From: Mobula birostris
Taxonomy: Eukaryota
DNA: 64,000 nt
Assembly: GCF_030028105.1 (NCBI RefSeq)
Contig: NC_092381.1
Coordinates: forward strand, 65,250,505 to 65,314,504
Reading direction: 5' to 3'
Each line of letters starts with the position of its first letter. Within the stretch, counting starts at the first letter, position 1. The notes under the pieces were generated by a model. That model saw only the letters and a program-made list of their open reading frames with translations, made no database searches and was not told where the DNA came from. Positions 1 through 62,639 of this stretch are shown piece after piece. A program made the position numbers and the translations under genes.

Positions 1-938
1 CTTTTCATATGGTTTTACCAAGTGTTTCTTTATAAATGTCAGTGTGTAAGAAATTGACACAGCAGTAATTCATAAGCACTAAGTCTGCTATGTACCATGT
101 ATAAGATCATGAGTGATCCTGTGCCCCAAGTCTATTTTACTGTCTGATCACTATAATGACAATCTCCACAACTCTCTGAAGTGGAAAATTCCAGTAATCT
201 ATAGCACAAGCTGTAAACAGGTATTCCTTTTCCAACATCCTATCCTTAGATTATGCCCCCATAATCTGTCAGCTCACCTCAAAAGTTTGTGTTTCACATT
301 TCATTCCACTGCATTGAGATGTCATGCATGATAGGCCAGGCTTCCTCAATTTTTCTTGATGAAGCATCTTCCTCGTCCCAGGAATCAAATGTTTAGATCT
401 TTGCTTTTGTAACTACATACCAAGTGTTTTTCCAGATATGGAGACCAAAATTGCACAGAGTATTCTAGGAATAGTCCTAATAAAGCCCTATGGAATTTCA
501 TTAAGCTTTTCTTACTGTTGTACTCTAACCCACTTGCATTCCTAATTGTTCTGTTTTTATTTTCATCTTCTAAAGCATTGGACTCAGATCTATTTGCATA
601 CAGTTATTTGGTGCTTATTATTGAAAAACTATTCTGGGTATCTAATATTCCATGCAAAATTCACAGCATATTTTTCCAGTTTGCCTCTGAGGTTTTTCTG
701 CAGACTCTTGTGTCCTTAAAGCATACTTTAACACCCGACTCTGAAATGTCAGGAAACCTGGATTCTGTCTTTATTTTTCAAATAACCTTTGAAAATTACC
801 TGTAGATTATCTTTGTCCTGGGCATATAATTGACCATCACAAATACGAGGAAATCTGCAGATGCTGGAAATTCAAGCAACACACATCAAAGTTGCTGGTG
901 AATGCAGCAGGCCAGGCAGCATCTTTAGGAAGAGGTAC

Positions 939-974
939 AGTCGATGTTTCGGGCCAAGACCCTTCGTCAGGACT
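939..974 (-). ncRNA. Minimal type I hammerhead ribozyme motif (PLE), stem III mutated
   Basis: Minus strand AGTC-CTGACGA-AGGGTCTTGGCCC-GAAACATC-GACT; ACGT palindrome changed to ACAT. Confidence 0.75.
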
Positions 975-1858
975 AACTGAAAGAAGAGCTAGTAAGAAAG
1001 TGGGAGGAGGAGGGGGAGATCCAAAATGATAGGAGAAGACAGGAGGGGGAGGGATGGAGCCAAGAGCTGGACAGTTGATTGGCAAAGGGGATATGAGAGG
1101 ATCATGGGACAGGAGGCCTAGGGAGAAAGAAAAGGGGGAGGGGGGGAAAAACCCAGAGGATGGGCAAGGGGTATAATGAGAGGGACAGAGGGAGAAAAAG
1201 GAGAGAGAGAAAAAGAATGTGTGTATATATAAATAACGGATGGGATACAATGGGGAGTTGGGGCATTAGCGGAAGTTTGAGAAGTCAATGTTCATGCCAC
1301 CAGGTTGGAGGCTACCCAGACGGAATATAAGGTGTTGTTCCTCCAACCTGAGTGTGGCTTCATCTTTACAGTAGAGGAGGCCAGCCTCCGGGTCCAACAT
1401 ATTATTCTCCGTAACTTCTACTTCTGCTACCTCCAACAGGATCCCACCACTAAGCACATCTTTCCCTCCCCCCCCCCACCCCGCTTTCCACAGGGATCGC
1501 TCCCTACGCAACTCCCTTGTCCATTCGCGCCCCCTCCCCCATCCCTCCCCACCGATCTCCCTCCTGGCACTTTCCCTTGTAAGCGGAACAAGTGCTACAC
1601 ATGCCCTTACACTTCCTCCCTTACCACCATTCAGGGCCCCAGACAGTCCTTCCAAGTGAGGCGACACTTCACCTGTGAGTCAGCTGGGGTGTTATACTGC
1701 GTCCGGTGCTCCCGATGTGGCCTTCTATATATTGGCGAGACCCGACGCAGACTGGGAGATCGTTTTGCTGAACGCCTACCCTCTGTCCACCAGAGAAAGC
1801 AGGATCTCCCAGTGGCCACACATTTTAATTGCACCTCCCATTCCCATTCTGATATGTC

Positions 1859-3240: not shown

Positions 3241-3659
3241 TATCCACGGCCTCCTCTACTGTAAAGATGAAGCCACACTCAGGTTGGAGGAAGAACACCT
3301 TATATTCCGTCTGGGTAGCCTCCAACCTGATGGCATGAACATTGACTTCTCAAACTTCTGCTAATGCCCCACCTCCCCCTCCTACCCCATCTGTTACTTA
3401 TTTATATGCACACATTCTTTTTCTCTCTCTCCTTTTTCTCCCTCTGTCCCTCTCACTATACCCCTTGCCCATCCTCTGGGTTCCCCCCCCTCCCCCTTTT
3501 CTTTCTCCCTAGGCCTCCTGTCCCTTGATCCTCTCATATCCCTTTTGCCAATCACCTGTCCATCTCTTGGCTCCATCCCTCCCCCTCCTGTCTTCTCCTA
3601 TCATTTTGGATCTCTCCCTCCCCCTCCCACTTTCAAATCTCTTCACTCCTCGTTCAGTT

Positions 3660-3695
3660 AGTCCTGACGAAGGGTCTCGGCCCAAAACGTCAACT
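3660..3695 (+). ncRNA. Degenerate hammerhead motif (core G12 to A)
   Basis: AGTC-CTGACGA-AGGGTCTCGGCCC-AAAACGTC-AACT; probably inactive. Confidence 0.6.
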
Positions 3696-4017
3696 GCACC
3701 TCTTCCTAGAGATGCTGCCTGGCCTGCTGTGTTCACCAGCAACTTTGATGTGTGTTAATTGACCATCAAACTGGTTTTGCACAGTTTCCAGTTCCTAACT
3801 TGTAGTTTGATTTAGCCATATCATGTACTGTTATCAATGAGATACAGCATAAATGCATGCCAGTTTCAAAAGATGATGTGATTTGGAATAACACTTCGAA
3901 AATTTCTGTTTGTAAAAACTAGATTGCAGAATTTCACGCCAGCAAAATAAATATTGCATGCATTTTCCACCTCTGAATCTTAAACTCATCACAGATAAGC
4001 AAACTCTTGATTTACTT

Positions 4018-4048: not shown

Positions 4049-7000
4049 CACCCGCCCACCAATCTGAGTTCATAATTTTCATATTAATTTATTGGTTAGG
4101 CATTGTTTGTTATATTGCTTGTTATTTCATATTTTTTTGGTTAATCATTTTGGTACAGTGTTTTGGTGGTTGGTGCCTTTGGGCAGAGTGCCCACAAGAA
4201 AAGTCTATTAAATATCCAAATGCATCCTTTGACATGATTTATAGTGTTTGTCCTGTGTTCTGTCATGGCATTCACAAACGCCTGAACTACTGTTTATACA
4301 GGTACCTGAAAGAAGTGGAAGGCCATAAACAGAAAGATTGGACTAACATTTCAGTAATTCTGCATTTAAAATTATCACTGCACCATCTGGTAGTTTTTAC
4401 CATAAAAGTTAACAGATTCCTCTGCAGAAAGTTAACTGAAATATGAAAGTTTGACTTCTGTTTGTGTGGTTGGGATTGAGAACCAGTAGTCCTATACTGG
4501 CCATGCAGCATTGGCAAAGTAATATGCATTTATTAAAAGCATTAACATTTATGGAAGTTTTACCAAGAATTTATTGAACATGTAGAGAATTTGGAACTCA
4601 CCTCTTTTTATTTTCTTACAGGAATCAACTTGAGCTATGATTGATCTCCATTTTCAAGGAACTTATAAGATCCAGTTCCCGAACTTTTTTTGTCTGAAAC
4701 TGTACTCTCAGCTCCATTTGAATAAACACTTAACAGCAAGATTTTGTTGCCATTTGTAGTCTGGTAGTATCACTTTTTTATTGATCAGTATGGACTGCAA
4801 TACTTGATAACTTGTATTTATTAAAAAAAGTGTAACCAACTTTATATTGTTCCTGGAGCTGCTAAAATTGGAAAATTTTAATTTCAGTGTAAACAAATCA
4901 TTTGCTTCTAACTCTTTCTGATCATAACCTTACATCTTTTTGAGGTTGCAAGATTCTAGACTGTTTTTAACAAGTAAGGGATCCATGGTGACTTGGCTGT
5001 TTGGATTCAAAATTGGCATGTCCATAAAAATCAGAGGGTGGTGGCAGTGGAACTTATTTTGACTGGAGGTCTGTGTCTCGTCATGTCTGCAGGGGTCTGT
5101 ACTAGGACCTCTGTTGTTCGTAGTAATGTTATATAATAGTGACTTGGAAGAAAATGTGGATGGGTGAGTTGGTAGGTTTGCAGATGGTACTAAGATCATT
5201 GGCAATATGGATAGTTTAGGAAATAGAATATAGTTGCAGATATGGGTGGTGAATTGCTGATAGAGTTTAATCCAGCCAGTATAAGGTGTTGTATTTCGAG
5301 AGAGCAGTTGTAAAGAGACAGTAAACAATTAATGGCAAGACCCTTAAGAGTGTTAATGTACAGAAGAATGTTGGGGTCCTAGTTTACAGCTCTCTGAAAG
5401 TGACTACACAGGTTGGTAGAATGGTAAAGTAGGCAGACAGCATAGAAATAGAACCATAGAAAAACTACAGCACAGAAACAGGCCTTTTGGCCCTTCTTGG
5501 CTGCCGAACCATTTTCTGCCTAGTCCCACTGACCTGCACACGGACCATATCCCTCCATACACCCCCCATCCATGTATCTGTCCAATTTATTCTTAAATGT
5601 TAAAAAAGAACTCGCATTTACCACCTCGTCTGGCAGCTCATTCCACACTCCCACCACTCTCTGTGTGAAGAAGCCCCCCCTAATGTTCCCTTTAAACTTT
5701 TCCCCCTTCACCCTTAACCCATGTCCTCTGGTTTTTTTCTCCCCTTACCTCAGTGGAAAAAGCCTGCTTGCATTCACTCTATCTATACCCATCATAATTT
5801 CATATACCTCTATCAAATCTCCCCTCATTCTTCTACGCTCCAGGGAATAAAGTCCTAACCTATTCAACCTTTCTCTGTAACTGAGTTTCTCAAGTCCTGG
5901 CAACATCCTTATAAACCTTCTCTGCACTCTTTCAACCTTATTTATATCCTTCCTGTAATTTGGTGACCAAAACTGAACACAATACTCCAGATTCGGTCTC
6001 ACCAATGCCTTATACAACCTCATCATAACATTCCAGCTCTTATACTTGAATACTTTGATTAATAAAGGCCAATGTACCAAAAGCTCTCTTTACGACCCTA
6101 TCTACCTGTGATGCGACTTTTAGGGAATTTTGTATCTGTATTCCCAGATCCCTCTGTTCCACTGCACTCCTCAGTGCCTTACCATTAACCCTGTATGTTC
6201 TACCTTGGTTTGTCCTTCCAAAGTGCAATACCTCACACTTGTTTGTATTAAACTCCATCTGCCATTTTTCCAGCTGGTCCAAATCCCTCTGCAAGCTTTG
6301 AAATCCTTCCTCACTGTCCACTACACCTCCAATCTTTGTATCATCAGCAAATTTGCTGATCCAATTTACCACATTATCATCCAGATCATTGATATAGATG
6401 ACAAATAACAATGGACCCAGCTCTGATCCCTGTGGCACACCACTAGTCACAGGCCTCCACTCTGAGAAGCAATTCTCTACTCTTTGGCTTCTTCCATTGA
6501 GCCAATATCTAATCCAATTTACTACCTCTCCATGTATACCTAGCAACTGAATTTTCCTGACTAACCTCCCATGCGGGACCTTGTCAAAGGCCTTACTGAA
6601 GTCCATGTAGACAACATCCACTGCCTTCCCTTCATCCACTTTTCTGATAACCTCCTCGAAAAACTCCAATAGATTGGTCAAACATGACCTACCACGCACA
6701 AAGCCATGTTGACTCTCCCTAATAAGTCCCTGTCTATCCAAATGCTTGTAGATTCTATCTCTTAGTACTCCCTCCAATAACTTACCCACTACCGACGTCA
6801 AACTTACTGGCCTATAATTTTCCGGATTATTTTTCGATCCTTTTTTAAACAACAGAACAACATGAGCCATTCTCCAATCCTCCAGCACCTCACCCGTAGA
6901 CACCAACATTTTAAATATATCTGCCAGGGCCCCTGCAATTTCAACACTAGTCTCCTTCAAGGTCCGAGGGAATACCCTGTCAGGTCCCAGGGATTTATCC

Positions 7001-7106
7001 ACTTTAATTTGCCTCAAGATAGTAAGCACCACCTCCTTTTCAATCTCCACACATCAAAGTTGCTGGTGAACGCAGCAGGCCAGGCAGCATCTCTAAGAAG
7101 AGGTGC

Positions 7107-7142
7107 AGTCGACGTTTCAGGCCGAGACCCTTCGTCAGGACT
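7107..7142 (-). ncRNA. Minimal type I hammerhead ribozyme motif, intact core
   Basis: Minus strand AGTC-CTGACGA-AGGGTCTCGGCCT-GAAACGTC-GACT. Confidence 0.85.
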
Positions 7143-8257
7143 AACTGAAGGAAGAATGAGTAAGGGATTTGAAAGTTGGAGGGGGAGGGGGAGATCCAAA
7201 ATGATAGGAGAAGACAGGAGGGGGAGAGATGGAGCCAAGAGCTGGACAGGTGATAGGCAAAAGGGGATACGAGAGGATCATGGGACAGGAGGTCTGGCAA
7301 GAAAGACAAGGGGGGGGGGGACCCAGAGGATGGGCAAGAGGTATATTCAGAGGGACAGAGGGAGAAAAAGGAGAGTGAGAGAAAGAATGTGTGCATAAAA
7401 ATAAGTAACAGATGGGGTACGAGGGGGAGGTGGGGCCTAGCGGAAGTTAGAGAAGTCGATGTTCATGCCATCAGGTTGGAGGCTACCCAGACAGAATATA
7501 AGGTGTTGTTCCTCCAACCTGAGTGTGGCTTCATCTTTACAGTAGAGGAGGCTGTGGATAGACATGTCAGAATGGGAATGGGATGTGGAATTAAAATGTG
7601 TGGCCACTGGGAGATCCTGCTTTCTCTGGCGGACAGAGCGTAGATGTTCAGCAAAGCGGTCTCCCAGTCTACGTCGGGTCTCGCCAATATATAAAAGGCC
7701 ACATCGGGAGCACCGGACGCAGTATATCACCCCAGTCGACTCACAGGTGAAGTGTTGCCTCACCTGGAAGGACTGTTTGGGGCCCTGAATGGTGGTAAGG
7801 GAGGAAGTGTTAAGGGCATGTGTAGCACTTGTTCCGCTTACATGGATAAGTGCCAGGAGGGAGATCAGTGGGGAGGGATGGGGGGGACGAATGGACAAGG
7901 GAGTTGTGTAGGGAGCGATCCCTGCGGAATGCAGAGAGAGGCGGGGAGGGAAAGATGTGCTTAGTGGTGGGATCCCGTTGGAGGTGGCGGAAGTTACGGA
8001 GAATAATATGTTGGACCCGGAGGCTGGTGGGGTGGTAGGTGAGGACCAGGGGAACCCTATTCCTAGTGGGGTGGCGGGAGGATGGAGTGAGAGCAGATGT
8101 GCGTGAAATGGGGGAGATGCGTTTAAGAGCAGAGTTGATAGTGGAGGAAAGGAAGCCCCTTTCTTTAAAAAATGAAGACATCTCCCTCGTCCTAGAATGA
8201 AAAGCCTCATCCTGAGAGCAGATGTGGCGGAGACGGAGGAATTGCGAGAAGGGGACG

Positions 8258-8398
8258 CTATAAGCCTACTGACTCTCATAGCCTACTATAAGCCTACTGA
8301 TTCTCACAGCTTACTATAAGCCTACTGACTCTCACAGCATACTATATGCCTACTGACTCTCACAGCTATACTATAAGCCTACTGACTCTCACAGCTAT
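8258..8398 (+). repeat. 5 x 28-29 bp tandem repeat (CTATAAGCCTACTGACTCTCACAGCNTA)
   Basis: Five near-identical units; the last reads on in frame as YKPTDSHSYLGYSSSHPVSCKNAIPFSQ (PLE RT thumb). Confidence 0.9.
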
Positions 8399-8703
8399 CT
8401 GGGCTATTCCTCTTCTCACCCTGTCTCTTGCAAAAACGCCATCCCCTTCTCGCAATGCACACATTCTTTCTCTCACTCTCCTTTTTCTCCCTCTGTCCCT
8501 CTGAATATACCTCTTGCCCATCCTCTGGGTCCTTCCCCCCCATCTTTCTTCCCGGACCTCCTGTCCCATGATCCTCTCGTATCCCCTTTTGCCAATCACC
8601 TGTCCAGCTCTTGGCTCCATCCCTCCCCCTCCTGTCTTCTATCATTTTGGATCTCCCCCTCCCCCTCCAACTTTCAAATCCCTTACTCACTCTTCCTTCA
8701 GTT

Positions 8704-8739
8704 AGTCCTGACGAAGGGTCTCGGCCCGAAACGTCGACT
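8704..8739 (+). ncRNA. Minimal type I hammerhead ribozyme motif, best copy
   Basis: Stem I AGTC/GACT; core CTGACGA (8708-8714); extra A; stem II GGGT-CTCG-GCCC; GAA; palindromic stem III ACGT; predicted cleavage after C8735 (GUC). Confidence 0.88.
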
Positions 8740-10379
8740 GCACCCCTTCCTAGAGATGCTGCCTGGCCTGCTGCATTCACCAGCAACTTCGATGTGTGTT
8801 GCTTGAATTTCCAGCATCTGCAGAATTCCTGTTGTTTTCCTTTTCAATCTCTACAGTTTCCATGATCTCACTACTTGTTTCCCTTAATTCCATAGATTTC
8901 ATGCCAGTTTCCTTAGTAAATACAGACGCAAAAAACTCATTTAAGATCTCCCCCATGTCTTTTGGTTCCACACATAGCTGACCACTCTGATCTTCAAGAG
9001 GACCAATTTTATCCCTTACAATCCTTTTAATATACCTGTAAAAGCTCTTTGGATTATCCTTCACTTTGACTGCCAAGGCAACCTCACGTCTTCTTTTAGC
9101 CCTCCTGATTTCCTTCTTAAGTATTTTCTTGCACTTTTTATACTCCTCAAGCACCTTATTTACTCCCTGTTTCCTATACATGTCCTACAACTCTCTCTTC
9201 TTTATCAGAGTTGCAATATCCCTTGAGAACCAAGGTTCCTTATTCCTATTCACTTTGCCTTTAATGCTGACAGGAACATACAAGCTCTGCACTCTCCTTT
9301 GAAGGCTTCCCAATTACCGATCACATCCTTGCCAGAGAACAACCTATCCCAATCCACACTTTTTAGATCCTTCCTCATTTCTTCAAATTTGGCCTACTTC
9401 CAGTTTAGAACCTCAACCCTAGGACCAGATCTGTCTTTATCCATGATCAAGTTGAAACTAATGGTGTTATGATCACTGGAACCAAAGTGCTCACCTACAC
9501 ACACTTCCGTCACTTGTCCTAACTCATTTCCTAATAAGAGATCTAATACTGCATCCCCTCTAGTTGGTACCTCTATATATTGATTTAGAAAACTCTCCTG
9601 AACACATTTTACAAACTCTAACCCATCTAGACCCCTAACAGTATGGGAGTCCCAATCAATATGTGGAAAATTAAAATCCCCTACCACCACAACTTTATGT
9701 TTCCTGCAGCTGCCTGCTATCTCTCTGCAGATTCTCGCTGACTATTGGGTGGTCTATAATATGATCCCACTAATGTGGCCATACCTTTCCTGTTTCTCAG
9801 CTCCACCCATAAGGACTCAGTAGACAAGCCCTCTAATCTGTCCTGCCTGAGCACTGCTGTAACATTTTCCCTGACAAGCAATGCTACCCCTCCACCTTTC
9901 ATTGCTCTGCCTCTATCACATCGGAACCCTGGAACTTTAACTTTATTAGTAAAGGCACCGAGTTCAAGAGTCAGGAAGTTAATCTGCAGCTTTATAAAAC
10001 TATTAAATTATTAAACATGCATCTAAAGGATGCTTTCATTTCTGATTGCCCCATTATAAGGATGTGGAGGCAATGAAGGGGGTTACAGAGGAAGTTTACC
10101 AAGATACCTTCTAGATTAGAAGGCAGGTACTATAAAGAGAGATGGGACAAACTTGGGCTGCTTTCTGTGGAATGGCAGAGGCTGAGGGGAGACCTGGTGG
10201 AGGTTTATAAGATTATGAGAGGCATAGATACACATCCAACTTCCATTTCCCAGGGCTGAAATGTCTAGAGGGCATATATTTAAAGTGAGACAGGGTAATA
10301 TCAAAGGAAATATACTGGACAAGTTCTTAATTTCACCGAAAGTGGTGGGCACCTGGAATATTTCCACTACATACCACAT

Positions 10380-18334: not shown

Positions 18335-18862
18335 TCATTCAATATCTACATCACTGCCATCACTAGCATTTTCACAAGCAGTGAATTCTCTTTCTGGCAA
18401 AAGGCCATATTCATTGAGGAAAGTTTCAACATCCACCGCAAAAAATTCTTCACCCAGCTGCTCGGTAATATGAAGGAAGTTGCCAATTAGTTCTCCTGCC
18501 TTGTACACCAGTAGTGCTGGTAGAATATTATCAGAGAAGCGGTCACTAGTTCCAGTGTTAGAGGCCTTTATTTTACAGAACTTAACCAAAGGATATTCCA
18601 AAGCAAGGCATGTTAAACAGTTAATCAAAGACTCGCATCCCTTCACTCTGTCCTCGTAAACATTCACCATCACTGTAGTTTTTTTCAATTCCTTTTCAAT
18701 CACTTCCAAGAATTGCTCCCCACTTTCAAGCTCATAGAGCATTCCAAACTGGGGGCCAACGCTTAGCTGCTGGTGCATCTCTCGCATGCATTGCTTGCGG
18801 TACCTACGAAGGCAAGCTTCATCTTCCTCATCTTGAATCATTTCATATTCTTGTACACTCAT
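18335..18862 (-). CDS. PDC: Phosducin, last coding exon (thioredoxin-like domain)
   Basis: Acceptor aaacag then MSVQEYE...[16 protein letters not shown]...[16 protein letters not shown]...[10 protein letters not shown], acidic tail, stop. Spliced CDS 73+158+528 = 759 nt = 252 aa plus stop. Short N-terminus fits PDC rather than PDCL. Confidence 0.95.
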
Positions 18863-19604
18863 CTGTTTCAGAAGGATAAAGAGAAAACAAAAGCTTTGCA
18901 AAAGAATGTTAATTTATCATGGGAAGACGTAACTCATTGTGAATTGCCTAAGGCATCAGTATCATTCAGGAATAAAAGTCTAATTGCTTTAGTGCTGACT
19001 TGCTCATTCTTGAATTTCAAATTACTTCCTGGATTTTTGTTCGTACAGTATCTGCCTTGTCTTTAATACAAAAATGCTTATTTTCCTTTTTTGATTCAAG
19101 ACTATTTAATTCACTGAAGCATCCACAGTGACAAGTAATTTGATTTCTTGTTTGTGGCATTTTCTTGGTACATTGTTGTTTACTCTTTTAAAGATTTACC
19201 TTTATTTGTATAATATATTTATTTATTCTTTAAAAAAATATTATTGTGCTTTATTTTCTTTACTTCTTTCCTGATTGTAGTTTTTAAAATGGTGAGAGGT
19301 GTAAGATGTTTTGTGTTCCCAGGAACCCTTTCTATGAATTACTTAAAATTAACTGTGAAATGAAGTGAGCAATTAGGAAGCAAACTGCATATAGGCCTGT
19401 ATGGTGAAAGGATTTCACTGCAAGAGTAAAGACTAAATGTGTTCCTGCTTGACGAAACAACATTGGAATATTGTATACAGGCTTGATCTTATTCATTGAA
19501 GGATATACTTCGAAAGGAAGAGTGTTTTGTTGCTTTGGTTGAATCCTTGAATGGAAGGTTTGTTATACCAGGTTAAAGTAAGCACAAGAGATTACATGGG
19601 TTTA

Positions 19605-21220: not shown

Positions 21221-21525
21221 TTACTACTGGTTTACTTCCCTTATTTCTTCCTCTAAATCCCTTCTAGTTGGCTGCATGATTCCTTTATTAAGGTGGTAGA
21301 TCCTTAATATATAATTAATATAATTCCTTTCATTCTGATTGCCTATATGTTGTAATTAGTGTAGGTACACTCTCTCATCCTCCTCTTTCTCTTTGGAATG
21401 TGTTGCATTCTGCAATTTTTAACCAAATTTGTTCTCCACTTCTACAAATCAACGTGTTCAGTTTATCAAATTAATTTTAAATCTTCTTTGCTTTGTAATT
21501 GATTATCTTTCCTGTTTTTACTCAC

Positions 21526-21683
21526 CTTTCGAGTGAATTTCTTTCGAGTGTCTTTGTCCTCCTTACTAAAAGAGTGGTATGGTGATGACAGTTGTCTAAG
21601 GAGTTGCTTTTTATCTGAAGAAATTTCATGGTCCTCGCTTTCTAGTTTAAATTTCCTCCAGTCATTGATCACTCCTTTTGGAC
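21526..21683 (-). CDS. PDC: Phosducin, second coding exon ([17 protein letters not shown]...RQLSSP...FTRK)
   Basis: Acceptor tttctag and donor AAG|gtgagt; 158 nt, phases 1/0 fit both neighbours; contains the G-beta-gamma-binding motif GPKGVINDW. Confidence 0.95.
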
Positions 21684-22019
21684 CTAGAAATGCAACTGTT
21701 TTAATGTTGTTTTCTGCTAGACATGTGCACATTACTAATAACATTGTCCCAATGTAGTTATACAAAATTGTATGACACAGTAACAAAATCCAGCACCAAG
21801 AGTGGCAAAATGATGTAGCAGATAGTGATGCTGCTGCTCGACTCACTAGTTTGAATGCGACCTCTTGTGCCACCTGTGCTTAACTGACTGTTGTAAATTA
21901 CCCCTCAAGTATGCTTGTGGCAGGGGAATTAGGGAGGAAATCGATGGGCATGTGAAAGAAAAATGCCGAGGAATAGCACTAATGATAATGTTCACGTAAG
22001 CTTTTCATTTGCTTTACCT

Positions 22020-24479: not shown

Positions 24480-24620
24480 GAATGGATGCTGGAAATCTGG
24501 AGCAAAACATAAAATGCTGGAGTAACTCAACAAGTCAGGAAGCATCTACAGAGGGGAATAAATAGTCAGTGCTTCAGGCTGAAACACTTCAGGATTGATG
24601 AATTTTGCATGTGTTGCTTA
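24480..24620 (-). mobile_element. Short PLE 3'-end remnant with decayed hammerhead
   Basis: gatgctggaaat...aaaatgctggagtaactcaacaagtcagg matches the PLE 3' ends elsewhere in the window. Confidence 0.6.
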
Positions 24621-25439
24621 AAAAAGGAACTATCATTACTTGCATGCTTTAGCACTTGGACAGAACGTATTGCATTATTTTCTGGGTGGGTTTATGCTCT
24701 ACAGGCCCCTGGTAATTGATTGCCACAACCATTAATCATTTTATATACTTTAATGCACTGGAATAATTCAAAATAGGGAAGTCTACACGGTCCCACAGTG
24801 TGCAGTTCATTATTCATATTCCCTGACATGGCAGCAAGCCACTTATTTGTATAAACAGGACCTTTGCCGTATTCTCTGTGATCAACAAAAAATGGAAAAT
24901 ATTGAGTGAATGAATTTTTTTTTAAACTAGAGAGATGAGTAAAAATCAAAAATGCTGAAAACACTTAGCAAGTCAGGCAGCAAAGCTGGAAACAGAAACA
25001 GTAACCTTGCAGGTGGAAGATCCATCAGAACATCTTTGTTCTGAAATGTGAACAGGCCTTTTCCTCCCCACAGATGCTGCCTGAAACAGTGAGTGGAATC
25101 TTGGTGACTAGAAAGAAAAGCATGGAAAGCAACTTAAATGCTGCTTACGAGAGAACATTGAGGAACGTAGAATAAGTTTGCCCTCTTGTGATTACTAATA
25201 AGCATAACAAGCATTTAATACATGCCATACTTTTATGAATATAAGAATTAGAGATTGACCAAAATAAGGTGGTAACCAGGATTAATGGATTTTCCTAGCA
25301 ATGAAGCTCCTCCCATTGTAACCAATCAGTATAAGCTTGCCATTCCTTTCTTCCTTCACTAGCTCATCAGGGCCTCACTTGTAGCTAAAGAAAGCAGAAT
25401 GATCTTAGTCAAGGCCCTAACAATCTAATTTCTTGCTGT

Positions 25440-44799: not shown

Positions 44800-47060
44800 G
44801 GGGTGTAAAAGCGATTCCTGCAGTGGGTTGTGTTTTGCTTGTGGGTAGTCAGGTTACTAGGCTCGAAGATATCCTTGCCACCAAGACAACTTTGAAAACA
44901 GTCAGCTCCTGCCTCCATCAGCTGTACAGTGGACTACGCAGTTCACTGTAAGTAACCCATTTGGACAACATCCCAGCCTCTACAGGAGGGGTGTCAAACC
45001 CAAATTCCTGCCCATTATAAGGACTTCTGTTATTCCTTTGACTGTAGATAGATGACAATTAGACTTTCTGATTGATACTGGAGCCATGTTTTCTACAATT
45101 CATGCTTCTGATTGGCCTCAAGCATCTCTAACTGATGAATCAGTAAATGTCATGGGACTCATGGGGGACACAGTTTCTCCGCCTCTTTCCTGTAAGGTCA
45201 CTTATCAGGTTTTTAGACTTGAAGGAGAACATCAGTCTTTAATAGTGCCAGAATCACCAATTACTTTATCGGACTGGGACCTCCTTTGTAAGTTGGGATG
45301 TACATTAGTATGCTCCCCAGAAGCAGTACAATTCAAGGTGCCTGAGACACTCTATGCGACTGTTTGTGCTTCATTGGAAGGCTCTATTCAAAAATGATCA
45401 GAGGTCTGGTGGTTGAATTTCACTGATGAATCGTCTGCTAATCCATTAACTTCGGTTTAGCAACTGCTGGAGCTTTCAGAGGCCTGTACAGGGCGAGGGA
45501 AATTTCCACATATGACATCTGGGTGGTGCATGACTGTCAACTGTATGGGCACATTATTCTGCAGAGGATCCAGACCACTTGTATGAGAAAACAGTGAAAC
45601 AATTGCTCCAAGATCGTAACTGTAAGTCATTCTGACTTGTTATTCTCGCCCTCTGCGTGGATCCAGAAGGTGTTGTTGCTGCAATAAAGCTGAATCATTT
45701 TGTTTAAAGGCTGCCTGATGTGAGCCTGCGTGTTACCCTTTATTTTGCACCATCGAATCGCTCATGGGATTTGGGACATATGATGAATCATCTCTTGCAT
45801 AAGCCATCAGAGGTTGACTATGCCCAATTCGACAGAAAACTATCAGTATTTCCCTAGGCAATTGTTTTTATGTACAATAACCCTGCTTCCTATTCTGCTG
45901 AATTTAAATATCAAGCCCTAAGTCTCTCATGGGTAGGTGGATAGTGAAACAATCAAAAGCTTCTTTGCTCAAGTACCAGAAATACTGTGGGCCAAGTACT
46001 GTCTGCAGAACCTCTTAAAGTATGATTGGATTTGCAAAACCCCTCCCATGCAAACCTCAGTATCCCTTGAACCAGAGAAGAGCACAAAGCCTGTATTGGA
46101 AGCACTCCTGCTAAGTGGGATTGTCATTCCAACAGTGGCACCATGTAATATGACTATATTGATTGTTTTGAAGCTGGGAAAGGGCACCTGGCATTTTGTC
46201 CAAGACCCAAGGGCTGTTAATGAATCCGTAATACCAACCTATCCCATAGTTCCGGACCCAGCTACAATCTTCTGTTGTATTCCCACAAACACTAAATACG
46301 ACACAATTGGGGCATGTTTTCAATCCCATTTCACCCAGACTCCCAATATTTGTTTGCTCTCACCAACCAAGGCAAACATTATACCTGGACCCACCTCCCA
46401 CAGGGACACACAGAGTCCAACTCTCCAAAAGGACTTGGTAGATGTAATTTTCCCATCTGAATCCATATTCTCATAATATGCACTGCAGATGATCAGCTTT
46501 TATGTTCCCCCAATCACAAAGCCTCTGTAGTCCTTTTGCGTGCCCTGCTACCAAGAGCCACAAGGCGTTGAGAAATATTACAGCTTTCACAACCCAAAGT
46601 GCATTTTTTGGGTTTTCTCTTGAATGGGGCTTGTGACCTGCTTTCTGACAAAATGGTGCCAGCCATTGTCAGTCTGTCTAAACCAGTCCTCGAGGAGGAT
46701 CGTGTACACTTTCTGGGTATGACCGGATATTGCTGACAGTGGATTCTTAACTATGTTGAACTTAGTTACCCTCTTTCAGGACCTCACTTTATGTCAGTGC
46801 CCGAGCAATTGAAGAGGTCAACTGAAGCCGACAGGTCCTTTACTGCTCTCATGTCTGCATCGACCTTCGGACTCCCAGATTGTGGTAAGCCTTTCTATCT
46901 GTTTGTACACAAAATCAGAGGTTTTTCTCAAGCAGCTCTTATTCAACAACATGATGATGCCTGTCATCTGGTAGCCTGTTATCGTACTCACCTGGCCTTG
47001 TAGCTCAAGGTTATCCTGGTTGCCTGAAAGCTGTGGCTGCAACTTGCCATGGTTTGGCCA
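44800..47060 (+). mobile_element. Decayed class I (epsilon-like) endogenous retrovirus gag-end/pro/pol
   Basis: Degenerate zinc knuckle CFACG (about 44830); protease FLIDTGA (about 45065); RT PCN..WHFVQDPRAVN..PIVPDP, YTWTHLPQG, FLGMTGYC, LPDCGKPFYLFV; many frameshifts. Confidence 0.85.
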
Positions 47061-52189: not shown

Positions 52190-54930
52190 GAGCAGCACAC
52201 ACAAAATGCTGGAGGAACTCTGCAGGTCAGGCGGCATCTTCCGAAATGAAGAAAAAGTTGATGCTTCAGGGCAAGGCCCTTCTTCAGGACTGGAAAGGAG
52301 TGGGGAAGATGCCAGAATAAAAGGGTGGGAGGAAGGGAAGGAGGATTAGCTAGAAGGCAACAAGTGAAGCCAAGTGGGTGCGAAAGGTAAAAGGTCTGGA
52401 GGAGAATCAATTAATCAGAAAGGAGAGTGGACCATGGGATAAAAGGAAGGCGGCAGGTGAAAGTCAGGTGAGAAGAAGAGGTAAGAGGCCTGAGCGGGGA
52501 ATAGAAGAGGGAAGGAGGAGGAAAAAACTATGGGAAAGAGAAATCAAAGTTCATGCCATCAGGTTGGAGGCTGCCTAGATGGAATATGAGGTATTGCTCT
52601 TCCACCCTGTTACCTGCCTCATTGTGGCAAAAGAGGAGTCCATGGACTGACATGTCGAACAGGAATGGGGTTAGGAATTTAAATGGTTGCACACCAGGAA
52701 AATACCACTTTTGGTAGATGTTATGGAGGTGCTTGACATAGAGGTCCCCCGATTTATGATGGGTTTCACCAAAGTAGAGGAGGCTGCATTGGGAACAATG
52801 GATGCAATAGACAACTCCAACAGATTTGCTGGTGAAGTATTGCCTCACCTGAAAGGACCGTTTGTGGTCCTGAATGGAGGTGAGGGAGGAGGTTGATGGG
52901 ATGTAGCATCTGTCACTTGCAGGGGTATGTGCCAGGAAGGACATTGGTAGGACATGATTCCCTGAGACAAGGGAACCATGGTGGGAACGATTTGCGTAGA
53001 AGGCGGAGAATTGGTGGGGATTGTGGAAAGCCAAAGGTGAGTTTGGTAGTAGGATCCTGTTGAAGAGGATGGTAGTTGCAGAGGATGATGGGTTGGATGT
53101 GGAGACTCATGGGGTGGAAAGTGAGGACAAAAAGAACTCAACCCTTTTCGGGCAATGGAAAGATGGGATGAGCATAGATGTCCGGGAAATGGAGAAGATA
53201 TGGGTGAAGGCAATATCAATTTGATGTCTTGGAAAGGAAAACATCATCCTGGAACAAATGTGGCAGAGATGAAGCTTTGAAGGTGTACACCTCTGATGAT
53301 CTGACAGAAATGAGAAAATGTCATCCAGAACATTACTTCAAGTGAAACTGTGACTGGATAAAGGACATTAAACTCTCTGCTTCTTTCTCAATAAAGAACC
53401 AACCAGTTCCCCTCCTCCATGTTGTAGAGCTGGTCCTCACCCTCAACTTTTCCTTCGACTCCCCCACTTTCTCCAGACTCAAGGGGTAGCCATGGGCACC
53501 TGCATGAGCCCCAGTTATGCCTGCCTTTTCCTTGGCTATGTCAAACAGTCCATGTTCCAAGCTTCCCCAGTAATGCTCCCCAACTCTTCCTCCGCTACAT
53601 TGATGACTGCATTGGTGCTGCTTCATGCATCCTTGCTGAGCTCGTCAATTTCATCAACTTTGCCTCCAACTTCCATCCTGCCCTTAAATTCACTTAGTCC
53701 ATTTCTGACAAGTCCCTTCCCTTTCTTGATCTCTGTCTCAATTTCTGGAGAAAACTGTCAACCAACATCTTTTATAAACCAACCAATTCCCACCCTAGCT
53801 CCTGTAAAAATGCCATTTCCTTTTCTCAGTTCCTTCATCTCTGCTGTACCTGTTCCCAGGATGCTTGTTTTCTTTCCAATACATCAGAGATAGCCTCCTT
53901 CTTCAAAGAACAGGGTTGTCCTTCCTCCACCTTTGATGCTGCCCTTACCCACATCTCCATTTCCCAAACATCAGTGCTCACCTCATCTTCTCACTTACTT
54001 GACAGTGATAGAGTTCCTCTTGTCCTTACCCACCACCCCATGAGCCTCCGCATCCAACACATCAACACCGCAACTTCCGTCATCTCCAAAGGGATCCTAC
54101 TGCCAAACACACCTTTACCTCCCTCCCCCTCTGCCTTCTGCATGGATCACCCACTTTGTGATTCCCTTGTCCATTCATCCCTCCCCACTAATCTCCTTCC
54201 TGACACTTATCCCTGCAAGCAGCCCATGTGGTACACCTGCCCATTCACCTCATCATCTCCATTCAGGGCCCCAAACAGTCCTTCCAGGTGAGGCAACACT
54301 TCATCTGTGAATCTGCAGAGGTTGTCTATTGTGTCCCATGCTCCTGATGTGGTGAGTTGGTGAGACTCATCGTAAATTGAGGTCTGCTTCATCGAGCACC
54401 TCCGCTCCATCCACCAAAAGTGGAACTTCCTGGTGACCAAACATTTTAATTATGATTCCCTTTCCTGTTGCGACATGCTAGTCCATGGCTTCCTCTTGTG
54501 CCATGATGAGGCCACCCTCAGGGTGGAGGAGCAACACCATATATTCTGTCTGGGTAGCCTCCAACCTGATGGCATGGATATCGATTTCTCCTTCCAGTAA
54601 GAAAATAATTTCCTTCCCACTCCCTCTTTTCCTCACTCTGGCTTCTTGCCTCTTCTCACTTGTGTATCACCTCCCCCTGGGTCCCCTCCTCCTTTCCTTT
54701 CTCCTATGTTCTATGCTCCTCTCCTATCAGATTCCTTCTTTTCTAGTCCTTTACCTTTCCCACCCACCTGGCCTCACCTATCACCCTCTAGCTCTCCTCC
54801 TTCCCCTCCCCCCCCTTTTATTCTGGCATCTTCCCCCCTCCTTTCCAGTCCTGAAGGATTAACTGTTTATTCATTTTCATAGCAGATGCCTGACCTGCTG
54901 AGTTCCTCCGGCATTTTGTTTGTATTGCTT
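52190..54930. mobile_element. Older Penelope-like element, inverted two-arm structure with RT core
   Basis: Minus arm about 52190-53270; plus arm about 53290-54930 with QTQGVAMGTCMSPSYA, LRYIDD and decayed GIY-YIG; decayed hammerheads at 52256-52291 (minus) and about 54847 (internally deleted). Confidence 0.85.
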
Positions 54931-55059
54931 AGAGATATATTGATCATTTCATATACTGACCATTCTCTGATCTATCAGGTTCCTGATGATTCTCTGTCCT
55001 CTCATCTTAAATCTATGCCTTTCAGTTCTTGATTCCCCAAGCCCGGGGAAAGTCCGTGC

Positions 55060-56025: not shown

Positions 56026-57442
56026 ACTGGGACTGCATAAGATCCTATGAGCATCAGCAAATACAGAGATGTATTCCATCACTATCTGTAACTTCATTCC
56101 TGGAATATCGCTTCTTCTCTTTAAGTCCATCATGCTTTCTGTGGCATAGACCACCCACAGCAGCTTACGTCCATCCTGGACCAGTCTTTCATGTCATCCC
56201 AGGTGTAGCCCATCTTCTCCCAAGAATGAAGTCTCTGGCTCTCCTGGCATTTTTTGTGGCTCTGGGTTTTTACAGGATGGGGTTGCTCACTCCATGACTA
56301 ACCATCCTCATTTTGCATCTGGGCTTGGGACTGTTCATGGTGGAGTTTGCCCAGAATATCCCTCTACCATTACTCAGGCTGGGGTATCAACCCTGGTTCA
56401 ATAAGGAGTGCAGAGGACATGCCAGTGATGATGAAAAATGCAGGGCACATACCAAAACCAGCACGCAATTAGCAGATCAGATCAAAGCTGTGCAGTTCTT
56501 TCACATCTCATCATGAATGTTGTGAAGAGGGAAACAGTTAACTGGGGAAGGAGATTCCACAAAGATCCCACTCTCAATGTCTGAGTGTTAAAGACACACT
56601 TGAAGCATTTGCAACCAAGTTCAGATCTGGAATGGATAATCTATCTCCAATTACTTATGTTGAATCACTTTCGTAGAAGTCAATCTTCAGTTAATTTATT
56701 TGACTCTCTATGACATCAAAAATGATCCAAGAGCACTGGTTATGTTGAAAGTTTCCCCAAGGCAGTACTAACAGGCAGTACTCCAGTAAGACCTGTAACT
56801 CTGAGCAATCTGAACCAAGTGATCAGCTTGCTTCCATGAGTCTGCACTCTGTCCATCATGGCCACCTGGAGCCATGTCACTCCCCTTCCCACCCCCACAC
56901 CAATATCTCTCACCAGACTTGTCCATAGTGAAGACAAATGCAAATGACAGAATCAGCACCTCACACTCACCCTGGGCAAAAAAAAAAAAAAACAAAAGAA
57001 CTTAAAGGCAATAAATATTGAATTTCTGGTAAACTGCCTCTTTTCTGGCCCTTTTTTGCCTCCTACTGATCTACCCAGTTCCTCTTACACCACCTCACAC
57101 CCCATTTCCTTCTTCCTTTCCCACTACACCTACCCGTCACCCACACACCATGCCCACAGGTTCCCTTCCCTCATTGTCCCCATCTCCCTTGCAACACAAA
57201 CAAAATACTGCATGAACTCAGCAGGCCAGGCTGTATCTATGGAAAAGATTAAACAGTCGCATTTCGGGCTGAGACTCTTTATCACAAAAAACTGTGGGTC
57301 AATTCTTTAAGAAAAATAACTAGATGGCTTGAGTTGCAAAAATTGAGGTGCTTTTATTTACCTCAAAACAAAACAAAAACTGGAAAAAAACATATATAGT
57401 CACCCTCAGACTAAACACAAAAGAAAACTAACTCCAAAGCCT

Positions 57443-59397
57443 ATCTGTATCTTGTTTTACGGCGGTTGGCATCCAGCTTAATGGTGCATTACCGCCACCC
57501 TCTGCTCCAGAATGTGCACTAGACATACATACAAAATCTATATATCTATATCCCTACACTTCACCCTCCCATCTTTGACCATCCTAGTATCCTATTCCTG
57601 TTTATTCATCATGTTCTATAAAAAAAAACCCCTGTACCCCTTAAAAACACTAAAAATACCCGGACTTGTGCTCTCTCACCCATGCCCAGCAACCCTTTTA
57701 ATGTGAATTCCTGCATCCCCAACTCCCTTAATTTATTTCTCATCATCTCTCTCTGTATCCCATACTTCCTGCAACACAAAACTACATGTTCTACTGACTC
57801 CTCTTCCTGACATTCCCCACATAATCCTGTCTGGTGTTTCCCTATCATTTTCAATGTTTTGTTTAATGCACAATGCCCCAGCCTTAACCTAGTCCACACA
57901 ATTTCCTCTCTTCTGTTTCCATTACCTACCCTAGTAACTGCAACACTCTTTTGTATTTGATATAAATGCCTCCCTTTCCCCTCCCTGTCCCATCTTTTTT
58001 GCCACATTCGGTTGACTTTTTCCCAGATCACACACTTAACCTCTGCTTTACTGATACTAATGTGCATTTCCACATTTTCTTTCTTTAACACCCTCTTTGC
58101 CAACTCATCCACCCTCTCATTCCCCTTCACCCCTACATGTGCTGGAACCCATAGAAATTTTACCTGACCTCCCTGATTTGCAATTCTTCTAACTAACTGA
58201 AGGACTTCATAAAGTACATCTTGCCAACTATTTGTGTGAAAAGACCTTAAACTTGCTAGAACTGAGGATGAATCTGAACATATCAATGCTTTGGCTTGTC
58301 TGGCTTTCTCCACCGATTGCAACGCAACCAACACTGCCAGCATCTCCACTGTAAACACCCCTAACTTATTAGATGTTCTTCTGCTGATTCCAATTTCTTT
58401 TGCTGGTATTACCACCCCAAACCCTGTCACTCCTGTTTCAGGTTCCTTCGCACTATCCGTATAAATGTGAGAATAATCACTATACTTTTCCATCACATGA
58501 CAGTTAAATGCATTTACCAAATCTGTTTTATATCTTTCTTTCCTTTTTACCTCTAACAAATGCCAGTCTATGTCAGGCCATACAAGCTTCTACGGAGCTA
58601 CAACCAGATAAACTACTGAAGGACTTATCCTCAGATCAAATACTCCACATTCTTTCATGATATCATTCCCTACCTGACTAAAGGTATCCCTCTGAAACCT
58701 CCCATTTTCCCAGCACTCCTGCAACACTCCTTTAGTAGGGTGAGAATCATTGTTCCCCTGCAAGTTAGCCCAGTAGTTTGCCATCAGTTGCATCCTTCTT
58801 AGTTCCAAAGGCATTATTCCCATTTCTACCTGTAGGGCTGACACTGGTGACATTTTAAAAGCCCCACTGCACACTCTCCAAGGCCTGAGCCTGAATCACA
58901 TCCAGTTTCCTTATAAGAGACCTAGCTGCTGATCCATATACTATATTTCCATAATCCAATACAGATCTCACTAAAGCCACATACATTCTCTTCAAAGCTG
59001 AACAACTTGCTCCCCGTTCCCTACCAGTCAAACATCTCATCACATTTATTACTTTTTTACATTTTTCCTCAACTTTCCTGATATGGTCTGCCTATATTAA
59101 TCATGAATCAAATATAACTCCCAGAAATTTAAATGATGCAACCCTTTCTAATTCAACCCCATACATTCTTAACTTCTTCCCTACCTCAACCCTTTTCCTG
59201 GTAAAAAATACAGTTTGAGTTTTATCTACTGAAAATCTACATCCCCAATCATAACCCCACTCCACCAATTCATCAATTGCTTCTTGTAGTTTCCTGATTA
59301 TATGGTCCATGTTCCTGCCTCTTTTCCACAAAGCCCCATCATCCACAAACAGTGACCTACCTATATCCACTGGTACCTTTGTGAAGACATCATTGAT
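57443..59397 (-). mobile_element. 5'-truncated I-group (Nimb-like) LINE with RT, RNase H and zinc knuckle
   Basis: LFVDD and FKFLG RT motifs; RNase H IYTD..E..CSDS..WVPAHVGVKGNERVD; C-x2-C..H..C; TSD TAACT(C/T)CAAAGCCT at 57429-57442 and 59398-59411. Confidence 0.85.
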
Positions 59398-59871
59398 TAA
59401 CTTCAAAGCCTTGCTAACCTGAGGCTTGTAACTGCTAAGCCCCTCCCCCTAGACCAACCAAAAGCTAATTAACTCAATTATCCATTTAAAGATGGTATCC
59501 TCCACCATCAGCACACCTGTGCAGGTTGCTGCTGCCTCTATGAGACAGCTCCATGCAGCAGCTCTGGTTCAGACCCAGTCACTATTACCGCTGGGGATAA
59601 GTGTTTTACCGAGTGCGCCATATGCCATCCGTAATCAGTGACAGGCCTTCATCACACCCTTCATCAGGGCTCCCATCTCCCCTCTCCTTTATTTGGTTCC
59701 ATGCTCCACTTTCCTTTCCAATCAGATTCCATCAGACTGTCTCCACCCATCACCTCCCAGTCTCTGTCACAACTTCCACTCATCCTTCCTCCATCTCCCT
59801 ATCCCCCCTCCCCACATGGCTTCTCAGCTCTGGCTCCACTCTTCCCCTTGCCTCGCTACACTGGTTATTTC

Positions 59872-59907
59872 AGTCCAGATGAAGGGTCTTGACCCAAAAC
59901 ATTGACT
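59872..59907 (+). ncRNA. Decayed hammerhead motif in an old PLE 3' remnant
   Basis: AGTC-CAGATGA-AGGGTCTTGACCC-AAAACATT-GACT; two core mutations. Confidence 0.5.
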
Positions 59908-60234: not shown

Positions 60235-60578
60235 CAAGCAGAACATGTCAGAATGGGAATGAGGATAGGGATTAAAACACTGGCAACTGGGAAGTTCCAC
60301 TTTTGGTTGGTGCAGAGGAGGTGCTCGACAAAGCAGTCACCAAATTTACATCCATTTGTCTCTCCCCACTAATCTTCTTCCTGACACATATCCTTGCAAG
60401 GAACAGAAATGCTACATCTGCCCATTCATCTCCTCCTTCACTTCCATTCAGGGCCCCAAACAGTCCTTCCAGGTGAGGCAACGCTTCACCTGCAAATTTC
60501 TTGTGGTCATCTACCGTATCTGGTGTTCCTGGTGCAGCCTCTTCTACATTGGTGAGACAAGATGTAAATTGGGGGATC
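60235..60578. mobile_element. Short inverted PLE remnant (GIY-YIG)
   Basis: Minus piece 60241-60340 abuts a plus piece 60350-60575 encoding VIYRIWCSWCSLFYIGET. Confidence 0.75.
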
Positions 60579-60847
60579 TAGATGATAGTAGGCTTCTTAA
60601 AGCAGAGGGAACCACAGCCTGAAGCAGGGAGAGGTTAAAACATGCCTGCAAATACCCTGCCAACTGATCTGCACAAGGGTCTAAGGCCAAGGCCAGGGAC
60701 ACCATCTGAGCTCGATGTTTCCTGAGGGTTCACTCTTCAGAAGACTGATCATATGCCCATGATAGTGACTGCAGAAAGAGATACACTGGAGACTATCAGA
60801 GTGGGTGGTGACATCCCTTCTGTTTATAGCATACATAGAATGTGCGA

Positions 60848-60977
60848 ACACGAGGAATTCTGCAGATGCTGGAAATTCAAGCAATACACATCAAAGTTGC
60901 TGGTGAACGCAGCAGGCCAGGCAGCATCTCTAGGAAGAGGTACAGTCGACGTTTCAGGCCAAGACCCTTCGTCAGGA
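60848..60977 (-). mobile_element. Solo PLE 3'-end insertion of about 130 bp starting at the hammerhead (60944-60977)
   Basis: TSD GAA(T/C)GTGCGA at 60838-60847 and 60976-60985; intact core CTGACGA..GAAACGTC. Confidence 0.8.
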
Positions 60978-62310: not shown

Positions 62311-62639
62311 CTATATATCTATTGTGCTTTCCCAAACTTTAAAATAAACCATTTTAAGACATTATGTGAAACTTTTTGTAGTACTTATAAGAGTACACAA
62401 ATTTGATTTAACTTTGAATTTTATGCAACCCTGTGTTCAGTGAAAGGTCTTGGTCTGAAACATCAACTCTTTATTCCTCTTTATAGATGCTGCCTGATCT
62501 GCTGAGTTCCTCCAGCATCTTGTGTGTGCAAATGCTTCAAAGAACTTTTTTTCCCTGCATGAAATACTCTAAACCTATAGAGAGAAGATTAAAAGAAGCA
62601 TTATAAATTTATAACATCTCAGCACTATCCTAGCCCAAA

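What the first reader, a model, noticed from the sequence alone, without database searches (positions are those of the whole stretch)
8704..8739. Minimal hammerhead ribozymes at the 3' end of Penelope-like elements
Seen: AGTC-CTGACGA-A-GGGT-CTCG-GCCC-GAA-ACGT-C-GACT has the full hammerhead core (CUGANGA...GAAA...UH), a 4-bp stem I, a 4-bp stem II and a loopless palindromic stem III (ACGU). The core is also intact at 7107-7142 (-) and 60944-60977 (-). Mutated copies lie at 939-974, 3660-3695, 52256-52291, 59872-59907 and about 62440. Each motif is downstream of the GIY-YIG ORF, about 100 nt from the full element 3' end. Known: PLEs carry minimal type I hammerheads thought to work as dimers. Inference: self-cleavage processes tandem PLE transcripts, and this family has seeded the genome with ribozyme motifs that the ORF track cannot show.
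Basis: partly seen in the sequence, partly recalled or inferred. Interest (0 to 1): 0.85.

Follow-up and report, generated by a model that had tools for sequence, protein, structure and literature searches.

The report
Minimal hammerhead ribozyme in ray retrotransposon
This is a tiny self-cutting RNA motif carried at the end of a Penelope-type jumping gene, apparently in a ray genome; the pairing is already known from many other animals, and the copies here look like decaying passengers.

Summary
The motif is real. 8704-8739(+) fits the published minimal type I hammerhead descriptor of Penelope-like elements (PLEs); predicted cut after C8735. The descriptor gave 4 hits in the window and 0 in 300 shuffles. 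Rfam misses it.

It sits in the terminal repeat (pLTR) of a PLE with a C-terminal GIY-YIG endonuclease and a Neptune/Nematis-type linker; the closest named proteins are from rays. Eleven clear copies of the ribozyme module lie in the window.

7107 and 60944 carry G10.1-U11.1, and 60944 lacks half of stem I. All 7 substitutions in the young copies are CpG transitions, so genomic copies decay; selection shows only between subfamilies.

Likely mechanism: slow, dimer- or protein-assisted cleavage in the master transcript; published work finds cleavage dispensable for insertion in vitro. A known kind in a lineage I found no report for. Interest low.

The parts
8704..8739 (+). Minimal type I hammerhead, the only young copy with no substitution against the family majority; predicted cut after C8735
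8455..8837 (+). Inverted arm of the composite insertion: pyrimidine-rich 3' UTR/pLTR, hammerhead, 59-nt conserved downstream stretch and ~38-nt tail; no endonuclease DNA upstream
   Evidence: 94% identical to 7039-7396(-) over 358 nt; tblastn; ends
8255..8456 (+). Spacer made of PLE coding DNA: five 28-nt slippage repeats plus ~60 nt of RT-thumb sequence, overlapping the 5' end of the minus-strand arm by a 15-nt inverted repeat
   Evidence: D1, I10; P0004 residues 72-103 hit 8360-8455
7437..8259 (-). 5'-truncated, frameshifted PLE ORF remnant: RT thumb, CX4CXXC linker, GIY-YIG endonuclease with CxxC and two His
   Evidence: Pfam GIY-YIG 22.6 bits, E 1.3e-4, at the cut-off; up to 95% identity to ray proteins
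7048..7436 (-). 3' UTR/pLTR of the minus-strand arm, ending at the short (tail-less) end
7107..7142 (-). Second hammerhead of the same insertion; G10.1-U11.1 from CpG decay
7034..7047 (+). Left 14-bp target-site duplication, inside a LINE ORF (RT 6040-7053, minus strand)
   Evidence: D3; RVT_1 E 5.5e-33
8838..8851 (+). Right 14-bp target-site duplication; the LINE reading frame continues across the insertion
   Evidence: APE domain at 9397-9741(-)
939..974 (-). Young copy, palindrome lost (G16.2A), in a 5'-inverted insertion 842-1858 with tail
3660..3695 (+). Young copy with G12A and G1.1A, predicted dead; insertion about 3243-3755, short end
60848..60977 (-). Young 130-nt copy that begins inside stem I; 10-bp target duplication with 1 mismatch; tail present
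52256..52291 (-). Old-subfamily decayed hammerhead, 236 nt after a decayed ORF
54845..54933 (+). Old-subfamily module whose hammerhead has lost its middle by deletion; decayed RT-endonuclease ORF upstream (about 53412-54591)
59872..59907 (+). Third-subfamily decayed hammerhead with its own pyrimidine-rich upstream region; no ORF found upstream
62439..62529 (+). Old short copy, decayed hammerhead, no recognisable UTR upstream
57187..57294 (-).
24496..24599 (-).

Best explanation
What it is (shown): a minimal type I hammerhead motif in the pLTR of a PLE with a C-terminal endonuclease and a Neptune/Nematis-type linker, most likely in a ray genome. The 8704 copy is a passenger in a dead, 5'-rearranged insertion.

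How it works (inferred): an active tandem master makes an RNA with one hammerhead in each pLTR, about 3 kb apart. A single motif cannot form stem III because ACGU has no loop, and it tends to lock its own core (GACG with CGUC). Two motifs pair through the ACGU palindrome and exchange stem I arms. Probably helped by the element's protein, each then cuts the other slowly after GUC, freeing a unit-length RNA that may be circularised. Reverse transcription starts inside the RNA, about 59 or about 97 nt past the motif, so every new insertion copies the motif first. That explains the many short copies and the two 3' ends. After insertion the copies decay by CpG mutation and have no job.
For: Descriptor fit and shuffle control. 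Nearest published motif is the Acropora digitifera Neptune hammerhead, with the same core letters and a 4-bp stem II (PMC4209133 supplement). PLE protein signature; 37 of 38 long homologues examined carry the CX2-5CXXC linker. Inverted 5' arm, optional tail and target duplication match described PLE insertions (PMC8557442; PMC3846280). Two ends about 38 nt apart match the two internal RT start sites of the anole element. Selection on masters: between subfamilies the hammerhead is 81% (29/36) and 78% (28/36) identical, the downstream stretch 67% and 61%, the ORF end 71%, while the upstream UTRs score at shuffle level (scores 22-42, shuffle maxima 31-48). Decay of copies: 7 of 7 substitutions in 5 young hammerheads are CpG transitions (7 of 50 CpG cells, 0 of 128 others). 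A double-hammerhead with no crossing or bad pairs can be drawn for 8704 x 8704. Monomer lock: -11.9 against -7.9 kcal/mol for the open form.
Against: No cleavage was measured. The double-hammerhead (-14.7 kcal/mol) is far less stable in ViennaRNA than the best dimer fold (-32.1), and stems I and II fall below 10% probability in flanks of 141 nt or more (the model ignores core tertiary contacts). The 36-mer folds no better than shuffles (z -0.96). No significant covariation in 11 copies (80/500 and 103/500 shuffles reach the observed values); RNAalifold did not recover the hammerhead. 0 of 11 copies begin or end at the cut site. In the anole element cleavage was dispensable for insertion in vitro; Naiad PLEs thrive without canonical hammerheads; 8 of 9 Xenopus retrozyme dimers did not cut in vitro. 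No full-length or tandem copy is in the window, so a second motif on the same transcript is assumed. The 0 of 128 non-CpG result is not significant against about 2% in the flanks (about 2.5 expected).
Confidence: 0.78

Rival explanations
1. The motif descends from a hammerhead and is kept in the master, but cleavage is not what matters. It serves as a structural or regulatory signal at the pLTR-ORF junction (protein binding, splice acceptor, start site), or it is a hitch-hiker.
For: Core mutants did not change insertion in vitro and no reads ended at the cut site in the anole. PLE clades without the motif are successful, and the authors raise parasitism. The 59 nt downstream are conserved too (61-67%). 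Stem I starts with YY-AG after a 75-88% pyrimidine tract in all 6 copies that keep a UTR, the geometry of the D. virilis intron end beside helix I.
Against: The catalytic letters, the extra base after A9 and the palindrome are kept across phyla (PMC4209133), which fits selection for cleavage. The anole motif cuts with protein present, and C3G/G8C rescue works. YAG and Inr-like words are common in these UTRs (3-7 and 5-8 per 233-294 nt).
Confidence: 0.17
2. This particular copy has been kept by the host and cuts a host transcript.
For: It is the only one of 5 young copies with no substitution.
Against: One clean copy of five is expected at 7 changes in 50 CpG cells. It lies in a PLE inserted in a LINE, about 9.6 kb beyond the last phosducin-family coding exon. 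Its nearest same-strand partner (3660) is G12A with a stem I mismatch. A transcript through the whole insertion would bury it in a ~350-bp inverted repeat.
Confidence: 0.03
3. Chance resemblance to a hammerhead in repeat DNA.
For: No Rfam hit; no covariation signal; one other descriptor hit (C3 at 60740) looks spurious, so the descriptor can misfire.
Against: 0 hits in 300 shuffles; the position in the pLTR and the anatomy match the published class, including features the descriptor does not ask for (G10.1-C11.1, extra base, palindrome).
Confidence: 0.02

Closest known systems
Minimal type I hammerheads (min-HHR) of metazoan PLE pLTRs, Cervera & de la Pena 2014 (PMC4209133); nearest listed motif: Acropora digitifera Neptune
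   Same: CUGANGA core, extra base after A9, G10.1-C11.1, GAAAC-GUC with no loop 3, short stem I, pyrimidine-rich upstream flank, place in the 3' pLTR, mostly single copies in truncated elements.
   Different: Host lineage: no cartilaginous fish in their alignment or table. Stem II is at the short end of the range (4 bp). Stem and loop letters differ.
Hammerhead of the anole Poseidon element PAc (PMC11167929)
   Same: Motif in the pLTR upstream of two alternative insertion ends that define a 30-40 nt tail.
   Different: Different PLE clade (Poseidon lacks the linker zinc finger). In PAc the ORF starts inside the hammerhead; here no overlap could be shown: no significant hit of the module's frames in 81 and then 227 fetched proteins, none a full-length ray ORF.
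Neptune-clade PLEs (PMC8557442)
   Same: RT, then CX2-5CXXC linker, then GIY-YIG with CCHH; 5' truncation, inverted 5' arm, optional tail.
   Different: Nematis shares the linker; no tree against named reference elements was built, so the clade label is 'Neptune/Nematis type'.
Non-LTR retrozymes (PMC7229834; bioRxiv 10.64898/2026.07.22.740005)
   Same: Type I hammerhead, pLTR-related, reported from one chondrichthyan genome (mean unit 363 bp).
   Different: Retrozymes are tandem repeats with a motif in each unit; the copies here are dispersed or inverted and several are attached to ORF DNA.

Membership tests
PLE minimal type I hammerhead (Cervera & de la Pena) | Fits the RNAmotif descriptor: stem I 3-7 bp, cuganga (+1), stem II 3-7 bp, gaaannuh | tested here: met
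   (descriptor text); 0 hits in 300 shuffles
PLE minimal type I hammerhead (Cervera & de la Pena) | Extra base between 9 and 10.1, G10.1-C11.1 pair, palindromic 15.2/16.2 | tested here: met
   A8715; G8716-C8727; ACGU 8731-8734. 7107 and 60944 have G-U; 939 has lost the palindrome
PLE minimal type I hammerhead (Cervera & de la Pena) | Located in the pLTR of a PLE | tested here: met
   294 nt after the GIY-YIG ORF stop in the 94%-identical 7107 arm; by homology for 8704
PLE minimal type I hammerhead (Cervera & de la Pena) | Covariation in stems across family members | tested here: inconclusive
   11 copies; shuffles often reach the observed values; the two-sided changes fall on CpG positions
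PLE minimal type I hammerhead (Cervera & de la Pena) | Self-cleavage as dimer, none as monomer | not testable with these tools
   Dimer can be drawn but is not the predicted lowest-energy fold
Canonical type I hammerhead (Rfam hammerhead families) | Closed stem III with loop, longer stem I, score against an Rfam model | tested here: not met
   No loop 3; no hammerhead among 6 Rfam matches at E<=10
PLE with C-terminal endonuclease | RT followed by GIY-YIG with CCHH motif | tested here: met
   long homologues with RVT_1 (and GIY-YIG in some) at up to 52% identity to P0007
PLE with C-terminal endonuclease | Inverted 5'-truncated arm, 30-40 nt tail at one end only, target duplication | tested here: met
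   7048-8837: tail only at the 8837 end, 14-bp duplication
PLE with C-terminal endonuclease | Full-length ORF between two direct pLTRs | not testable with these tools
   No full-length copy in the window; no eukaryotic genome collection offered
Neptune clade | CX2-5CXXC linker between RT and endonuclease (shared with Nematis) | tested here: met
   CX4CXXC in the window; definition
Neptune clade | RT groups with reference Neptune elements in a tree | not tested
   No named Neptune or Nematis reference proteins were among the hits
Non-LTR retrozyme | Tandem units each with a complete hammerhead | tested here: not met
   No head-to-tail units with intact motifs in the self-comparison or profile scans; a decayed same-strand pair near 24500-25020 is unresolved

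The most novel reading that the evidence does not exclude
The hammerhead's first bases mark a real RNA boundary in this family. Stem I begins with an AG that follows a long pyrimidine tract, so it may be the 3' splice site (or start site) of the element's transcript. Splicing would then remove half of stem I and switch the ribozyme off in the mRNA while leaving it on in the unspliced transposition template. Copying from the 5' pLTR of such RNA would give a ~130-nt hammerhead-headed, SINE-like class. In the window 4 of 11 copies lack any UTR and begin near this edge: one sharply, right after the AG (60977; offset +2, target duplication), three fuzzily (offsets -35 to +1 depending on the reference). 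Their upstream flanks are unrelated to each other and only 42-58% pyrimidine. Weak points: n = 4, post hoc; my clustering simulation (P 0.0009 or 0.075 by zone size) assumed an 8-nt cluster that one search does not support; YAG is common here; the sharp copy can be a microhomology truncation.
Probability: 0.12. Interest if true: 0.5.

Novelty: new member of a known kind. Interest (0 to 1): 0.2.

Why it matters
[quoted passage not shown] The gain here is modest: a compact 36-nt example from cartilaginous fish, a lineage for which I found no PLE min-HHR description (searches; the bioRxiv supplements and the Lunse et al. paper were not visible). What the PLE hammerhead does in vivo is still open. 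A young, abundant family with two sharp 3' ends could be used for genome-wide statistics on copy boundaries relative to the cut site, but this one window does not settle it.

Tried and rejected
Rfam scan at E<=10: no hammerhead. RNAalifold on 11 copies gave no hammerhead and pair counts showed no covariation beyond shuffles; decayed copies cannot show it. A conserved fold downstream of the motif: not supported (z 0.02 to -0.85). The descriptor hit at 60714-60740(-): set aside as probably spurious (3-bp stems, no G10.1-C11.1, flanks translate like a LINE ORF remnant by my recall; the in-window search found only itself). It stays in the count of 4 hits and sits awkwardly with 0 hits in 300 shuffles. 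Overlap of the motif with the ORF start: no significant peptide match in 81 and 227 proteins. Target duplications for 842-1858, 3243-3755 and the three old short copies: none convincing. Inr-like start site: motif too common to count. The bacterial promoter scan does not apply to this host. The 28-nt minisatellite at 8255-8396 as a separate element: rejected, it is slipped PLE coding DNA. A dimer between 8704 and 7107 on one RNA: rejected, opposite strands. Lunse, Weinberg & Breaker (dimer cleavage of PLE hammerheads) was not held; only its title and the review's summary were seen. One search timed out and was rewritten.

Full report
Observation. The 36-mer stands at 8704-8739 on the plus strand as described. 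It has a 4-bp stem I (five with a U-G pair), the box CUGACGA, one extra A, a 4-bp stem II closed by G10.1-C11.1, and GAAACGUC with no loop 3; C17 is 8735. I coded the minimal-hammerhead descriptor printed in the supplement of PMC4209133. It hit 4 places (C3 at 8708+, 7138-, 970-, 60740-) and 0 places in 300 dinucleotide shuffles made in 2-kb blocks. A looser pattern gave 6 matches against a mean of 1.12, with 0 of 100 shuffles reaching 6. Rfam returned 6 weak matches, none a hammerhead.

Copies. An ungapped scan found 7 copies at 0-8 mismatches and nothing else below 14. Profiles built from 11 candidate copies returned those 11 with strong scores, then only weak extras (6 more at E<=10, 7 more; the best lie near 24930-25120). 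Five copies are young and near-identical, from four insertions; six are old. The distance to the 3' end is 96-98 nt in 3 young copies and 59-60 nt in 2.

The element. 7437-8282(-) matches Pfam GIY-YIG at the cut-off. Its best protein matches are from the rays Mobula hypostoma (95% over 44% of the query) and Hypanus sabinus, so the window is most likely from a ray (inference). The order is RT thumb, CX4CXXC linker, endonuclease. A longer ray homologue retrieves 46 proteins of 801 residues or more; 37 of the 38 I examined carry the linker. By PMC8557442 (passages) this linker marks the Neptune and Nematis clades; I built no tree, so the label stays 'Neptune/Nematis type'.

The locus. 8704 and 7107 belong to one insertion, 7048-8837, flanked by a 14-bp duplication (7034-7047, 8838-8851) inside a LINE whose frame continues across it. 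The minus arm (8259 to 7048) carries the endonuclease and ends without tail. The plus arm starts with five slipped 28-nt repeats and about 60 nt of RT-thumb DNA, jumps to the UTR at 8455, and ends with a tail of about 38 nt. An inverted 5' arm and a one-sided tail are described PLE features (PMC8557442; PMC3846280, passages). The two motifs point away from each other, so they cannot pair on one sense RNA.

Selection and decay. In the five young motifs all 7 substitutions are CpG transitions: 7 of 50 CpG cells and 0 of 128 other cells, against 18 of 943 upstream and 8 of 384 downstream non-CpG cells. They hit G12 (3660), C11.1 (7107, 60944), G16.2 (939), G1.1 (3660) and the loop. This is ordinary decay; the zero is not significant. 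Between subfamilies the motif keeps 78-81% identity and the downstream stretch 61-67%, while the upstream UTRs align at shuffle level. That points to constraint on the master lineages. Covariation could not be shown.

Folding. The monomer's best fold (-11.9 kcal/mol) pairs GACG of the core with CGUC; the open form is -7.9. A double hammerhead can be drawn without conflict for two 8704-type strands, but scores -14.7 against -32.1 for the best dimer, and with 141 nt or more of natural flank stems I and II drop below 10%. These numbers omit tertiary contacts. They fit the low activity reported for this class and do not show activity.

Mechanism. Shown: identity, position, insertion structure, decay. 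Taken from papers: PMC4209133 (parts 1-2 of 4 of the text and all of supplement 2) reports no monomer cleavage and low dimer cleavage for a schistosome motif, and proposes processing and circularisation. PMC11167929 (parts 1-2 of 4) reports two internal RT start sites that define the tail, cleavage only with protein present, and no need for cleavage in insertion in vitro. PMC6765202 (passages) summarises the dimer model; PMC7229834 (passages) shows RtcB circularisation of retrozyme RNA. Inferred: the same holds for this family. All copies long enough read through the cut site, and 0 of 11 start or stop there; this fits uncut templates or re-ligated circles and cannot tell them apart.

Novelty. 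The class is known. The supplement of PMC4209133 lists no cartilaginous fish (its file 1, an index page, was not searched). A search for hammerhead ribozyme, shark and Penelope gave 1 paper, where shark is only the namesake; broader searches showed nothing on point in their listings (25 of 52 papers listed, 11 of 11). The preprint 10.64898/2026.07.22.740005 (parts 1-3 of 5) finds hammerhead retrozymes in one chondrichthyan and Neptune and Poseidon in five vertebrate classes; its supplements were closed and may list this family. Lunse et al. was not held. PMC12602865 (passages) treats a fish Neptune without hammerheads.

One lead. Four of 11 copies have no UTR and start near the first base of stem I, one sharply and three fuzzily. 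Stem I starts with AG after a pyrimidine tract; in D. virilis Penelope an intron ends beside helix I (PMC2377424, passages). A splice-site or start-site boundary is therefore possible, but the numbers are small and the words are common.

Verdict. Real, correctly named, already described in kind; a new member from a ray. The 8704 copy is most likely an inert passenger. Interest 0.2.

Noticed in passing
It lies between 40-nt inverted repeats (85%); single copy in the window; fails the descriptor through stem mismatches.
   Followed up: partly
window 8255-8396: A 5 x 28-nt minisatellite made from PLE coding DNA at the inversion point, probably by RT slippage.
   Followed up: yes
window 842-1858 and 60243-60578: Further 5'-inverted PLE insertions. 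The 939 and 3660 copies both break near the same ORF position, about 410 nt upstream of the motif.
   Followed up: partly
window 24496-24599 (-), 24929-25020 (-), 25033-25119 (+): One clear and two very weak old modules close together: a same-strand pair about 420 nt apart and an inverted pair. Could be an old partial tandem or retrozyme-like unit; the DNA between is not visibly repeated.
   Followed up: partly
window 52256-52291 (-), 24560-24596 (-), 54848-54866 (+): Two old copies share GAAG at A15.1, and a third has lost the stretch between two identical 7-nt words; possibly a subfamily with a weakened core.
   Followed up: no
window 18338-18913 and 21469-21879 (-): Exons of a phosducin-family host gene (Pfam E 4.6e-84 and 9.4e-14).
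   Followed up: no
window 57609-58589 (-), 59104-59448 (-), 45056-45394 (+): RNase H, RT and aspartyl-protease remnants, probably LTR retroelement pieces.
   Followed up: no
proteins P0001, P0026, P0029, P0032: Annotated skate and ray proteins carry this PLE's endonuclease end (seen at the C-terminus of P0001, P0026, P0029), by exonisation or mis-annotation.
   Followed up: no
window 60714-60740 (-): A descriptor hit with 3-bp stems in what looks like a LINE remnant; probably spurious.
   Followed up: partly
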